Assembly: GCA_963842085.1 (NCBI GenBank) | Contig: CAWJET010000001.1 | Span: forward strand, 2,368,001 to 2,432,000 | Direction of reading: 5' to 3' | Length of the DNA stretch: 64,000 nt | DNA from: an uncultured delta proteobacterium | GTDB lineage: Bacteria; Desulfobacterota; Binatia; Binatales; Binataceae | Shown here: positions 46,932 to 49,637 of the stretch, piece after piece | Numbering within the stretch: the first letter of the stretch is position 1 | Layout of the letters: each line of letters opens with the position of its first letter | Notes under the pieces: generated by a model | Told to the model about the DNA's origin: nothing | What the model saw: only the letters and a program-made list of their open reading frames with translations | The model's database searches: none | Made by a program: the position numbers and the translations under genes

Positions 46932-49592
46932 CTAGTGCACCAGAGACGCGACTTTGGACAGGGCTTCGTCGAGCTTCGAGGCGTCGCGGCCGCCGGCCTG
47001 GGCCAGGTCGGGGCGGCCGCCGCCGGTGCCGCCGACGATCGGCGCGATATTCTTGATGATGTCGCCGGCTTTGATTTGCGCCGTCAGGTCAGGCGTCACT
47101 GCGACCAGCAGCGCGACCTTGCCGTCGCCGAGGTCGGAGCCGAGAGCGACCACGGCAGAGCCGTGCTTCTGGCGCATCCGATCCGCCATCTCGCGCATGG
47201 TGCGCGGATCGACGCCGTCGAGCTTGCGCGTCACGATCTTTACGCCGCCGGCCTCGCGCACTTGTTCCTCGGCCGCCGCGCCGCCGGCGCCTGCGGCGAG
47301 CTTTTGTTCCATCGCGCGCAGCTTCTTCTCCAGCTCTTTTTCGCGCGCTAGCAGTTTTTCCAGCCGCTCGACTGCGGCGCCGTCGCGCGCGCCGAGCTGC
47401 GCGCCAATCTCTTCGAGGATTCTCTCGCGCTTGCGAATCGTTTCGAGCGCGCCTTGTCCCGTCACCGCTTCGATTCTCCTCACTCCCGCAGCGACTCCCG
47501 ATTCCGCTTCGAGTTTGAACATCCCGACGTCGCCGGTACGCGAGATGTGCGTGCCGCCGCATAGCTCGACCGAAAAATCGCCCATCCTGACGACGCGTAC
47601 GCGGTCGCCGTACTTGTCGCCGAAAAATGCGAGCGCGCCGGCCTTGATCGCGTCGTCGTAGGCCATTTCCTCGACCGTCACTTCGGCGTTCTCCCGGATG
47701 CGCGCGTTGATCTCTTCCTCGATGGTCGCCAGCGCGTCGTCCTTGACCGGCCCCTGATGCGCGAAGTCGAAGCGCAGCTTGTCGGGATCGACCAGCGAGC
47801 CCGCCTGATGCACCGAACTACCCAGCACGTCGCGCAATGCGTAGTGCAGGATGTGTGTCGCGGAATGATTGAGCATCGCGGCGTCGCGCCTGAGACGGTC
47901 AATTTTGAGTTTGACGCGCGCGCCGCGTGCGAAGTCGCCGGCCTCGCCACGCAGAATTCGCCCCAGGTGAACGATAGAGCCTTCAGCCTTGCGCGTGTCC
48001 GACACTTCGAGAATCGCGCCCGACGCGGTCTCGATCACGCCGCGATCGCCGACCTGCCCGCCGCCCTCGGGATAGAAGGGAGTCTCCGCGACGACGACCG
48101 CTACGTGCTCGGCGTCCTTGCCGCCGGCCGCGAGCACTTCGGACTCGCCCTCGTAGCGGTGATAGCCGACGAAGCGCGAGGCAGTCCCGGTGCCGAGGCT
48201 GATCTCCGGTGCGACGGCGTCATCTTTGCGGGCAGCGCGTCCGCGCTCCTTCTGCTCGTCCATCAGCCGGTTGAAGCCGGCGACATCGACCGTGAAACCG
48301 TCCTCGCGAAGAATGTCCTCCGTTAGGTCAAGTGGGAAGCCGTAGGTGTCGTAGAGCTTGAAGGCTGCTTCAGCGGAAAGCGCATGATGCCCAAGAACTC
48401 GCAACTGCTTACGCGCGCCGTCCAGCAACGAAAGCCCACGGTCAAGCGTCTCCGAGAATCGTCGCTCTTCCAGATCGACCTGTTCGCCGATCCTGATACC
48501 CTCTATACGGAGCTCTGGGTAAAAAGAACCCATGGTTTCGACGACTCGGCCGCATACACCCTCCAAGAAGGGCTCGTGAATTCCCAATCGGCGTCCGTGT
48601 CGGACAGCGCGACGGATTATTCTCCGCAGCACGTATTCGCGATCCGTATTGCCGGGAACAATACCCTCGGCAAGCAAAAAACTTATTGCGCGAGCGTGGT
48701 CCGCTATAGCTCGGAAAGAAACGTCGGTGTCGGCGCTTTGCCCATATCGTGCGCGATTGCCAACAACTCGCGCGGCTTCCTGGATATTAGAGATAATGTC
48801 CCGGAACAGATCAATTTCGTAGTTGCCGAGGATCCTGCCTGTCTCGATGCTCTGCAGGGCCGCCGCAATGCGCTCGAGCCCTGAGCCGGTATCGACGTGC
48901 TTCTTCGGCAGCGGAGTCAGCGCGCCCGACGCGTCGCGGTTGTACTGGATGAAAACCAGGTTGGCGATCTCGATGAAGCGCTCGCATCCGTCGACGTTCA
49001 CAAAACATTTCTGCCCCGGATGATTTCTTTCAGGCTGGCATGCGGCTTCGCCGCGGTCGATGCTGATTTCCGAGTTCGGGCCGCTCGGCCCCGTCTCGGC
49101 CATCTCCCAGAAATTATCCTTGTCGCCGAATTGCAGAATCCGCTCGCGCGGCAGCACTCCCATCTTCAGCCAGATGTCCTCGGACTCCTTGTCGTCCTTG
49201 TGGACCGTCGCGTAGAGCAGCTTTGGATCGATTTCCCAGACCTTGGTGATCAGCTCCCAATGCCACCGAATCGCTTCTTCCTTGTAATAGTCGCCAAAAG
49301 ACCAGTTGCCGAGCATCTCGAAAAAAGTGTGATGGTAAGTGTCGCGGCCGACCGCTTCGAGATCGTTATGCTTGCCCGATATGCGCAGGCATTTCTGACA
49401 ATCTGCGACGCGCACGTGCTGAGGAGAGCGCACGCCCAGGAAATAATCCTTGAACTGCACCATCCCGGCGTTGGTGAAGAGGAGCGTGGGGTCGCCCTTG
49501 GGAATCAGCGGCGCCGACGGCACGATCGTATGACCGCGCTCGGCGAAGAAATCGAGAAACGATTGGCGGATTTTTGCAGTAGTCCAGCGCAT
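46932..49592 (-). CDS. alaS: Alanine--tRNA ligase
   Basis: FTNAGMVQFK, HHTFFEMLGN, DTGSGLER, LYDTYGFP, HSATH, ELCGGTH, GGGRP..AQAGG. Confidence 0.98.
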   Translation of the reverse strand: MRWTTAKIRQSFLDFFAERGHTIVPSAPLIPKGDPTLLFTNAGMVQFKDYFLGVRSPQHVRVADCQKCLRISGKHNDLEAVGRDTYHHTFFEMLGNWSFGDYYKEEAIRWHWELITKVWEIDPKLLYATVHKDDKESEDIWLKMGVLPRERILQFGDKDNFWEMAETGPSGPNSEISIDRGEAACQPERNHPGQKCFVNVDGCERFIEIANLVFIQYNRDASGALTPLPKKHVDTGSGLERIAAALQSIETGRILGNYEIDLFRDIISNIQEAARVVGNRARYGQSADTDVSFRAIADHARAISFLLAEGIVPGNTDREYVLRRIIRRAVRHGRRLGIHEPFLEGVCGRVVETMGSFYPELRIEGIRIGEQVDLEERRFSETLDRGLSLLDGARKQLRVLGHHALSAEAAFKLYDTYGFPLDLTEDILREDGFTVDVAGFNRLMDEQKERGRAARKDDAVAPEISLGTGTASRFVGYHRYEGESEVLAAGGKDAEHVAVVVAETPFYPEGGGQVGDRGVIETASGAILEVSDTRKAEGSIVHLGRILRGEAGDFARGARVKLKIDRLRRDAAMLNHSATHILHYALRDVLGSSVHQAGSLVDPDKLRFDFAHQGPVKDDALATIEEEINARIRENAEVTVEEMAYDDAIKAGALAFFGDKYGDRVRVVRMGDFSVELCGGTHISRTGDVGMFKLEAESGVAAGVRRIEAVTGQGALETIRKRERILEEIGAQLGARDGAAVERLEKLLAREKELEKKLRAMEQKLAAGAGGAAAEEQVREAGGVKIVTRKLDGVDPRTMREMADRMRQKHGSAVVALGSDLGDGKVALLVAVTPDLTAQIKAGDIIKNIAPIVGGTGGGRPDLAQAGGRDASKLDEALSKVASLVH

Positions 49593-49637
49593 CAAGATCT
49601 GATTGTAGCCGGGGAAGGGTAAATCACTCAATTGAAC

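What the first reader, a model, noticed from the sequence alone, without database searches (positions are those of the whole stretch)
48310..48820. A ~500 bp AT-shifted, divergent block inside essential alaS over the tRNA-recognition domain
Seen: codon usage changes abruptly in-frame. By hand count 40 of 80 codons in the block end in A/T (ATA, CGA, GTT, TCT, AGA) versus 6 of 40 in a flanking stretch, with no indel or stop. The protein also departs from the usual consensus (PGNTDREYVLRR versus PSNEGRGYVLRR; LSAEAAF versus LSG..AF) while keeping the Asn and YDTYG Asp associated with G3:U70 reading. Inference: either a domain swap by recombination from a lower-GC donor, or a locally hypermutated segment of a core gene, for example escape from a phage protein, toxin or nuclease. 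Localised diversification of a housekeeping gene would be a novel mechanism. No template or reverse transcriptase is visible in this window.
Basis: partly seen in the sequence, partly recalled or inferred. Interest (0 to 1): 0.7.

Follow-up and report, generated by a model that had tools for sequence, protein, structure and literature searches.

The report
Swapped domain block inside alaS
About 530 bases inside the essential alanine-tRNA ligase gene of this soil bacterium have been replaced by a very different, AT-richer version of the same protein domain, and the same stretch has been replaced many times across its bacterial family, which hints at an unknown pressure on a housekeeping enzyme.

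Summary
In alaS (window 46932..49631, minus strand; Candidatus Binatus) codons 272-422 have GC3 0.54 against 0.79 elsewhere (LLR 20.2; highest of 200 permutations 10.8). The divergent tract runs from codon ~275 to ~451 (window ~48279..48809).

It is a mosaic gene made by recombination, not local hypermutation. Against same-genus relatives the flanks are 80-93% identical in protein and the tract 42-71%. Tract dS is saturated while flank dS is 0.17-0.48. The tract is sister to that of another genus (G158; support 99/99), and an AU test rejects placing it with its own genus (p 5e-67). Unitigs from two studies bridge both junctions. The genome has no reverse transcriptase and no second copy of the tract.

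The pattern is family-wide:
- 106 Binataceae genomes carry 51 tract classes that do not follow the flank tree.
- All 21 tracts measured are AT-shifted.
- A sister family shows nothing similar (30 genomes).

No donor closer than 77% was found. tRNA-Ala does not co-vary with the tract. What drives the turnover, and why the tracts are AT-rich, remain open.

The parts
46932..49631 (-). alaS ORF (899 codons). The likely true start is the ATG at codon 14, i.e. 49592.
   Evidence: define the ORF. Pfam finds tRNA-synt_2c, tRNA_SAD and DHHA1. Aquifex and E. coli AlaRS structures align across residues 17-477. The gene is single-copy in the genome.
48279..48809 (-). Divergent, AT-shifted tract, codons ~275-451. 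It covers the helical tRNA-recognition domain and the start of the next subdomain.
   Evidence: Nucleotide identity to five same-genus canonical alleles falls from 0.85-0.92 to 0.31-0.80 and recovers at codon ~447-451. 74 of its 177 codons end in A/T. Contigs of co-occurring relatives break off at 48287-48292 and at 48803.
48366..48818 (-). Maximum-likelihood low-GC3 segment, codons 272-422. This is the 'block' used for the family comparisons.
   Evidence: GC3 is 0.536 against 0.794, with LLR 20.2 against a permutation maximum of 10.8.
48729..48803 (-). Variable sub-block 1, codons 277-301.
   Evidence: Column entropy is high across 106 genomes, and the mismatch strings agree.
48579..48728 (-). 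Conserved island inside the tract, codons 302-351 (RAIADHAR ... PGN..R.YVLRRIIRRA.RHG). It includes N328 at 48648-48650.
   Evidence: Many positions are at least 97% conserved in 106 genomes. Even so, codon choice here is AT-shifted in this genome (read directly).
48375..48578 (-). Variable sub-blocks 2-4 (codons 352-364, 375-391 and 403-419), with short conserved stretches between them.
   Evidence: Entropy profile. Nucleotide identity to canonical alleles reaches its lowest values here, 0.31-0.34 at codons 401-410.
48312..48374 (-). Conserved island, codons 420-440 (AFKLYDTYGFPLDLTED). It includes D428 at 48348-48350.
   Evidence: A423, F424, L426, D428, T429, G431, F432, P433, D435, L436 and T437 are each at least 97% conserved.

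Best explanation
The block is the footprint of an intragenic allelic replacement. Homologous recombination, with crossovers in the conserved sequence on either side, exchanged the ~177 codons encoding the helical tRNA-recognition domain of AlaRS for a deeply divergent allele of the same domain. That allele belongs to a lineage whose closest sampled member is in another genus of the family Binataceae (G158), in an alaS that is low in GC3 throughout.

The resulting enzyme is intact and functional: the frame is kept, the key motifs are kept, and the tract is under purifying selection.

This is one instance of a family-wide pattern. In Binataceae this module exists as dozens of old, mutually 40-60% identical alleles, and they are replaced between close relatives far more often than any other part of the gene.

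Shown here: the mosaic structure, its boundaries, the phylogenetic conflict, the physical continuity of the assembly, the constraint on the alleles, and the restriction of the pattern to this family.

Inferred: recombination as the molecular route, the direction of transfer (from composition alone), and any selective cause. The AT shift is either the donor's composition or decay of GC3 in rare alleles that no longer recombine with relatives. It is not resolved which.
For: 1. Divergence against 22 same-genus genomes: the tract is 42-71% identical in protein and the flanks 80-93%.

2. Substitution rates. For G000 against G009, tract dN is 0.34 and dS 2.4, while flank dN is 0.038 and dS 0.45. For G041 against G056, tract dS is 2.5 and flank dS 0.17. 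A jump in synonymous divergence excludes positive selection as the sole cause.

3. The flank tree of 112 genomes recovers all 30 genus labels with the minimum of 29 changes. The tract tree needs 50, and splits the window's genus into 8 pieces.

4. In a careful mixture-model tree, G000 and G158 are sisters with support 99/99. Forcing G000 together with 12 canonical same-genus alleles costs 74.9 lnL (p-AU 5e-67).

5. G000 against G158 is equally distant in tract and flank. Tract: aa 0.76, nt 0.72, dS 2.5. Flank: aa 0.72, nt 0.69, dS 2.2. Four database proteins likewise have tract identity at or near flank identity: 77/72, 73/73, 70/70 and 64/68.

6. The replacements are discrete events.
- Within a class the tract changes at about the flank rate: G005/G041 nt 0.93 tract and 0.93 flank; G140/G147 0.94 and 0.94; tract dN/dS 0.06-0.16.
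- P0131 matches G008 at 93-98% in the flanks but 36% in the tract. P0124 shares G008's allele at 83% with flanks at 85-86%.

7. In 23 pair comparisons (which share some genomes), left ends fall at codons 272-283 in 16, at 252-261 in 6 and at 321 in 1. Right ends fall at 420-423 in 6, at 431-455 in 11 and at 470-574 in 6.

8. Low GC3 follows each tract's own extent. All 21 tracts measured have GC3 of 0.45-0.73 against 0.76-0.84 for the rest of the gene.

9. Unitigs from two studies span both junctions with no differences. The identical mosaic occurs in a separate NCBI MAG protein, P0002.

10. Control: in a sister family (30 genomes, 435 pairs) the tract never falls more than 0.066 below flank identity, and tract-minus-flank GC3 lies between -0.05 and +0.09.
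Against: - No donor was found. The nearest tract in 165 family genomes is 76% identical, and the nearest among 5.8 billion proteins is 77%. Synonymous divergence to G158 is saturated, so the transfer is either old or came from an unsampled lineage.

- Many other tract alleles are orphans. Their best family match is 48-66%, and they are no closer to 34 genomes of other families (0.41-0.53). A pure import model therefore needs a very large unsampled allele pool.

- The sign of the GC3 shift is always negative. 42 of 106 genomes have tract-minus-flank GC3 of -0.10 or lower, and none has +0.10 or higher. Random donors from a family whose alaS usually has GC3 near 0.8 would not produce that.

- The shift is almost entirely at third codon positions. 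GC at positions 1+2 in the tract is 0.546 in non-canonical alleles against 0.555 in canonical-like ones.

- The AU group was defined by genus, but I tested it after seeing a first tree.

- Most genomes are metagenome-assembled, and related genomes are not independent observations.
Confidence: 0.8

Rival explanations
1. In situ burst of localised mutation. An error-prone or targeted process repeatedly scrambled this segment in many lineages, selection kept only the essential motifs, and an AT-biased mutation spectrum lowered GC3.
For: - Orphan alleles have no relative above 48-66% in the family and are no closer to other families.
- Terminal branches in the tract tree are very long: G008 1.4, G104 0.82 and G101 0.79, against a median of 0.13.
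- The AT shift always has the same sign and is confined to third positions.
- The left boundary recurs at codons 272-283 in 16 of 23 pair comparisons.
Against: - Within allele classes the tract's nucleotide divergence is close to that of the flanks, and dN/dS is 0.06-0.16.
- G008's 'orphan' allele has an 83% relative whose flanks are 85-86% identical, so the allele is old and stable.
- G000's own tract has a normal root-to-tip length and a 99/99 sister in another genus.
- Right boundaries vary from codon 420 to 574.
- G000, which is 100% complete, has no RVT_1 reverse transcriptase and no second copy of the tract at DNA or protein level.
Confidence: 0.08
2. Old balanced polymorphism without transfer between genera. 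Several tract alleles have segregated since before the family radiated, and they are sorted or exchanged only among close kin. On this view G000 inherited its allele rather than importing it.
For: - G000 and G158 are as far apart in the tract as in the flanks (dS 2.5 against 2.2; aa 0.76 against 0.72), as expected if the allele class is as old as the split between the genera.
- All tract alleles stay inside the family clade when rooted on other families (SH-aLRT 99).
Against: - G000's closest flank relatives (G001, G062, G009, G045, 92-93% identical in the flanks) all carry the canonical allele.
- The only same-genus relative of G000's allele, G023, is 71% identical in the tract against 91% in the flanks.
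- Keeping 51 classes through every speciation without exchange is unparsimonious. It still needs recombination to place the old alleles in young flanks.
Confidence: 0.1
3. Artefact: a chimeric metagenome assembly joined the flanks of one species to the middle of another.
For: Most genomes are metagenome-assembled, and related Binatus species co-occur in the same soils. Contigs 90-95% alike lie on the flanks.
Against: - One unitig of 1224 bases (run X4) spans 47900-48918, across both junctions, with no differences. Unitigs from X7, X1 and X5 each bridge one junction.
- The same mosaic occurs in P0002 from another assembly.
- The pattern recurs in dozens of genomes, including one-contig and megabase-contig assemblies.
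- The sister family, analysed the same way, shows none.
Confidence: 0.01

Closest known systems
aaRS homeoalleles (TyrRS in Bacteria; ThrRS and SerRS in Archaea; Andam and Gogarten, PMC3191353, passages read)
   Same: Divergent forms with the same function coexist within a higher taxon, with one form per genome. Their distribution conflicts with the organismal tree. They are replaced by homologous recombination in conserved flanks, within the same gene neighbourhood.
   Different: There, whole genes and two types. Here, an internal module of ~150-180 codons of a single gene, with at least 51 classes in one family and a consistent AT shift.
Mosaic housekeeping or target genes formed by interspecies recombination, such as penA and pbp genes of Neisseria and Streptococcus
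   Same: In-frame blocks of much higher divergence, with sharp boundaries, inside an otherwise conserved essential gene. Such blocks often differ in base composition.
   Different: Those have identified donor species and a known selective agent (beta-lactams). Here no donor closer than 77% is known and no agent is known.
Hypervariable specificity modules flanked by conserved sequence, such as the agrBDC and comCD allele groups (recalled)
   Same: A sharply bounded segment with a few to many deeply divergent alleles, conserved flanks, and exchange among relatives.
   Different: Those encode a signal and receptor that co-evolve. Here the obvious partner, tRNA-Ala, does not co-vary: the acceptor stem is identical in 17 of 17 genomes checked, and whole tRNAs are identical across different tract classes.
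Diversity-generating retroelements
   Same: Localised diversification of a defined stretch within a gene.
   Different: The genome has no reverse transcriptase and no template repeat. Changes occur at all codon positions and towards both A and T. The target is a cytoplasmic enzyme, not a ligand-binding fold at the C-terminus.

Membership tests
Alanine--tRNA ligase (AlaRS) | Domain architecture tRNA-synt_2c + tRNA_SAD + DHHA1 | tested here: met
   E-values are 3.8e-185, 5.6e-18 and 7.4e-19. The catalytic-domain model matches residues 20-579 in one stretch, running straight through the tract.
Alanine--tRNA ligase (AlaRS) | Collinear with solved bacterial AlaRS N-terminal fragments | tested here: met
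   1riq (Aquifex) aligns over query residues 18-477 at E 9.5e-130, and 3hxu over 17-467. The only gaps inside the tract are in its first variable stretch.
Alanine--tRNA ligase (AlaRS) | Residues assigned to G3:U70 recognition are kept (Asn of P.N, Asp of YDTYG; the assignment is recalled) | tested here: met
   N328 and D428 are each at least 97% conserved among 106 genomes. The tRNA-Ala genes carry G3:U70. Function was not assayed.
Mosaic gene by homologous recombination | Significant phylogenetic conflict between the tract and the rest of the gene | tested here: met
   Searches show the conflict; the AU test gives p 5e-67.
Mosaic gene by homologous recombination | Abrupt boundaries with a jump in both dS and dN | tested here: met
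Mosaic gene by homologous recombination | An identifiable donor with a near-identical tract | tested here: not met
   The best matches are 76% (165 family genomes) and 77% (5.8 billion proteins).
aaRS homeoalleles (sensu PMC3191353) | Divergent forms of identical function, one per genome, patchy within a higher taxon | tested here: met
   There are 51 classes in 106 genomes, with one alaS per genome in most.
aaRS homeoalleles (sensu PMC3191353) | The unit exchanged is the whole gene | tested here: not met
   Only codons ~252-283 to ~420-574 are exchanged.
Diversity-generating retroelement target | A reverse transcriptase and a template repeat in the genome | tested here: not met
   PF00078 gives 0 matches in the 100% complete genome. 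The tract has no second copy at DNA level (next best E 0.67) or protein level (1 match).
Cassette gene conversion (antigenic-variation type) | Silent partial copies in the same genome | tested here: not met
   for G000. Second matches seen in some other genomes were not examined.

The most novel reading that the evidence does not exclude
The helical tRNA-recognition domain of AlaRS is the target of an antagonist specific to Binataceae, such as a phage protein, a toxin or a natural inhibitor. Negative frequency-dependent selection keeps dozens of old alleles of this module in circulation, so that a cytoplasmic housekeeping enzyme behaves like an antigen locus. The uniform AT shift is the mark of rare alleles that have dropped out of GC-biased gene conversion. 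If so, these tracts would be a natural experiment on what maintains high GC3 in bacteria.
Probability: 0.25. Interest if true: 0.85.

Novelty: new variant of a known kind. Interest (0 to 1): 0.6.

Why it matters
Mosaic genes and whole-gene aaRS replacement are both known. I did not find a report of an essential, single-copy synthetase in which one internal domain turns over among close relatives as a cassette, with dozens of deeply divergent alleles in a single family and none in the sister family. The searches behind that statement are listings only; no hit for the terms in the Binatota genome paper.

Three consequences follow.
- alaS, and any phylogeny or species delineation that uses it, is unreliable in this group.
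- Something specific appears to act on the tRNA-recognition domain, and tRNA-Ala is not it.
- The one-sided GC3 deficit of the swapped tracts offers a direct handle on whether recombination (biased gene conversion) or selection keeps GC3 high.

Tried and rejected
- tRNA co-evolution: rejected. The three tRNA-Ala genes of G000 carry G3:U70. tRNA-Ala(GGC) is 100% identical between G000 and genomes of 10 other genera with quite different tracts. In 17 of 17 sequences read, the acceptor stem is GGGGCTG/CAGCTCC, and canonical and orphan genomes share identical tRNAs.

- Antisense gene under the tract: rejected. The + strand ORF 48384..48884 lies in the codon-aligned antisense frame. 32 of 34 low-GC3 relatives have at least one stop in that frame.

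- Phage reservoir: no support. IMG/VR gave 8 alaS loci, all only 43-46% identical (one scan, patterns taken from the N-terminus).

- Donor in other Binatia families: none among 34 genomes.

- Direction of recent synonymous change: inconclusive. In 13 triplets of non-canonical alleles and 8 canonical controls, GC>AT exceeds AT>GC in tract and flank alike in nearly every triplet. This shows neither amelioration nor extra decay. Parsimony polarisation is biased in GC-rich sequence.

- RNA evidence: no RNA holder was listed.

- The first genome-wide GC3 scan was dominated by ORF 5' over-extension, so I redid it with an 80-codon edge limit.

- Not done: a structure model, solvent exposure of the variable positions, and a search for stand-alone domain fragments ('shorter' proteins). 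These remain open.
Full report
WHAT IS THERE

The finding lies in alaS, an 899-codon ORF on the minus strand at window 46932..49631. The likely start is the ATG at codon 14. Pfam finds the full AlaRS architecture. The protein aligns with solved bacterial AlaRS N-terminal fragments across residues 17-477.

Database names place the organism in Candidatus Binatus, family Binataceae. The genome is 4.93 Mb in two contigs and 100% complete. Neighbouring genes are a DUF445 gene, recA and a phoH-like gene.

- GC3 in 40-codon windows drops to 0.45-0.60 between codons ~265 and ~450, and is 0.70-0.90 elsewhere.
- The best two-boundary segment is codons 272-422. Its GC3 is 0.536 against 0.794, with LLR 20.2 against a maximum of 10.8 in 200 permutations.
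- Among 2307 ORFs of this genome, alaS has the strongest dip that is truly internal. It ranks 11th, and the ten above it all begin at the edge limit, the signature of ORFs called too long at the 5' end (confirmed for the pheT ORF).

THE TRACT IS FOREIGN TO ITS FLANKS

Against 22 alaS genes of the same genus, the flanks are 80-93% identical in protein and the block only 42-71%.

Nucleotide identity to five canonical same-genus alleles falls from 0.85-0.92 to 0.31-0.80 at codon ~271-275, and recovers at ~447-451.

Both substitution classes jump. For G000 against G009, tract dN is 0.34 and dS 2.4, while flank dN is 0.038 and dS 0.45. Codon choice is AT-shifted even in the conserved motif PGNTDREYVLRRIIRRA (read). 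Saturated synonymous divergence cannot come from positive selection alone.

PHYLOGENY

- A flank tree of 106 family genomes plus 6 outgroups recovers every one of 30 genus labels with the minimum of 29 changes.
- The tract tree needs 50 changes and splits the window's genus into 8 pieces.
- With a mixture model on 43 rows, G000's tract is sister to that of G158, a member of another genus, with support 99/99.
- Holding G000 with 12 canonical alleles of its own genus costs 74.9 log-likelihood units (p-AU 5e-67). The group was defined by genus, but I tested it after a first tree had been seen.

G158's alaS is low in GC3 throughout (flank 0.62, tract 0.58). A relative of G158 would therefore deliver a tract with the observed composition.

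The transfer is not recent, or the true donor is unsampled. G000 and G158 differ as much in the tract (aa 0.76, dS 2.5) as in the flanks (aa 0.72, dS 2.2). The best match among 5.8 billion proteins is 77%. Four database proteins have tract identity at or near flank identity (77/72, 73/73, 70/70, 64/68), as expected of a lineage in which this allele class is resident.

NOT AN ASSEMBLY ARTEFACT

Seven runs from two studies hold the stretch; some may be the source samples. One unitig spans 47900-48918, across both junctions, with no differences, and three others each bridge one junction. Contigs of co-occurring relatives lie on the flanks at 90-95% identity and break off at 48287-48292 and at 48803, exactly at the tract ends. 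An independent NCBI MAG protein (P0002) has the same tract, with flanks 99% identical.

NOT A HYPERMUTATION DEVICE

The genome has no RVT_1 reverse transcriptase. It has no second copy of the tract at DNA level (next best E 0.67) or at protein level (one match).

THE FAMILY-WIDE PICTURE

How the set was built:
- I fetched alaS from the family.
- 156 of 165 genomes had a match to the block.
- 151 rows were assembled, and 136 had a full block with at least 400 flank residues.
- 106 were kept for the counts. I dropped the 7 outgroup rows, rows with fewer than 700 flank codons, and five genomes with frameshifted ORFs: G048, G051, G052, G053 and G061.
- Genomes flagged unpublished (G117, G173, G178-G180) were not fetched for alaS.

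What the 106 genomes show:
- They carry 51 tract classes at 75% protein identity or more. One class of 35 genomes spans five genera, has normal GC3 (mean tract-minus-flank difference -0.02) and broadly follows the flank tree. Most of the others are singletons.
- Of 79 genomes whose nearest flank neighbour is at least 85% identical, 32 have a tract at least 0.20 less identical than the flanks.
- Within genera with flank medians of 0.78-0.89, tract medians are 0.44-0.58 in nine genera.

The events are discrete:
- Within a class, tract and flanks diverge alike (G005/G041 nt 0.93 and 0.93; G140/G147 0.94 and 0.94), with tract dN/dS of 0.06-0.16.
- P0131 matches G008 at 93-98% in the flanks and 36% in the tract. 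P0124 shares G008's allele at 83%, with flanks at 85-86%.

Boundaries in 23 pair comparisons (which share some genomes):
- Left ends fall at codons 272-283 in 16, at 252-261 in 6 and at 321 in 1.
- Right ends fall at 420-423 in 6, at 431-455 in 11 and at 470-574 in 6.

48 of 205 positions are at least 97% conserved across all alleles, including N328 and D428.

CONTROL

In a sister family of the same class (30 genomes, 435 pairs), tract identity never falls more than 0.066 below flank identity, and the GC3 difference lies between -0.05 and +0.09. The phenomenon is therefore a property of Binataceae, not of AlaRS in general.

WHAT REMAINS UNEXPLAINED

First, the source of the alleles. Orphan tracts have a best family match of 48-66%. 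They are no closer to 34 genomes of other families (0.41-0.53), and all fall inside the family clade. Either the allele pool is far larger than what has been sampled, or some lineages went through episodes of fast change.

Second, the AT shift.
- All 21 tracts measured are lower in GC3 than the rest of their gene.
- 42 of 106 genomes have a difference of -0.10 or lower, and none has +0.10 or higher.
- The deficit correlates with how isolated the allele is (Spearman 0.48). This is not corrected for relatedness.
- It is confined to third positions: GC at positions 1+2 is 0.546 against 0.555.

Two readings fit the shift. Donors may come from low-GC lineages, or GC3 may decay in rare alleles that can no longer recombine with relatives, and so escape biased gene conversion or weak selection. 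A polarised count of recent synonymous changes did not discriminate between them.

Third, the driver. tRNA-Ala is excluded. An antisense gene is excluded. Phage contigs gave no related alaS.

COMPARISON WITH WHAT IS KNOWN

The closest concept is the aaRS homeoallele: divergent forms of identical function, exchanged by recombination in conserved flanks (PMC3191353; passages read). Here the unit is a domain rather than a gene, and the classes number dozens rather than two.

Literature searches gave no report of this for alaS or Binatota (listings only, none of five terms occurs in the Binatota genome paper). Supplements were not consulted.

CLAIMS THAT REST ON UNPUBLISHED GENOMES

- The statement that a same-genus genome (G023) carries a 71% relative of the tract. 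An NCBI-listed partial protein, P0005, shows the same figures.
- One of the 106 rows (G018).
- The family tallies include G023, G018, G117, G173, G178, G179 and G180.

VERDICT

The hypermutation reading is rejected. The recombination reading is supported for this genome, with an unsampled or old donor. The family-wide, one-domain, AT-shifted allele turnover in an essential synthetase is unusual and unexplained.

Noticed in passing
G000:C2:1091678-1093543 (-), outside the window: An Hsp70-family gene (621 aa, PF00012 E 4e-177) has an internal 78-codon GC3 dip at codons 409-486 (0.47 against 0.78, LLR 15.1). It may be a second mosaic tract in a housekeeping-type gene.
   Followed up: partly
G000:C1:1795274-1797748 and G000:C2:400726-404076, outside the window: Two AAA_16 + TPR proteins, one with an adenylate/guanylate cyclase domain, have long low-GC3 stretches in their TPR parts (0.65 against 0.83 and 0.62 against 0.80).
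   Followed up: partly
alaS codons 146-227 (window ~48951..49196) in relatives G008 and G042; codons ~467-579 in G042, G065, G137, G138 and G115: Further divergent tracts occur in some relatives' alaS. One lies in the catalytic-domain insertion and is not AT-shifted (GC3 0.82-0.83). Another lies in the linker before the editing domain.
   Followed up: partly
alaS codons 173-194 (window ~49050..49115): G000 and its nearest kin (G001, G009, G062, and G023 with one further change) read NFWEMAETGPSGPNSEIS. The commonest form in the family set (39 rows, including four of other families) is NFWEMGETGPCGPCSEIH. The two Cys of the usual GPCGPC motif are replaced.
   Followed up: no
G000:C1:1497579-1497655 (tRNA-Ala GGC), outside the window: G000's tRNA-Ala(GGC) is 100% identical to that of 10 other genera, whereas most genomes of its own genus have a copy 92% identical. 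In the sequences read, the changes are compensatory and lie in the T stem.
   Followed up: partly
Relatives G019, G051, G175 and others: Some family genomes give two matches to the alaS block on different contigs. Whether these are second copies, strain mixtures in MAGs or split frames was not examined.
   Followed up: no
window 48384..48884 (+): A 166-codon antisense ORF coincides with the tract. It lies in the codon-aligned antisense frame and is not kept open in 32 of 34 low-GC3 relatives, so it is taken as chance.
   Followed up: yes
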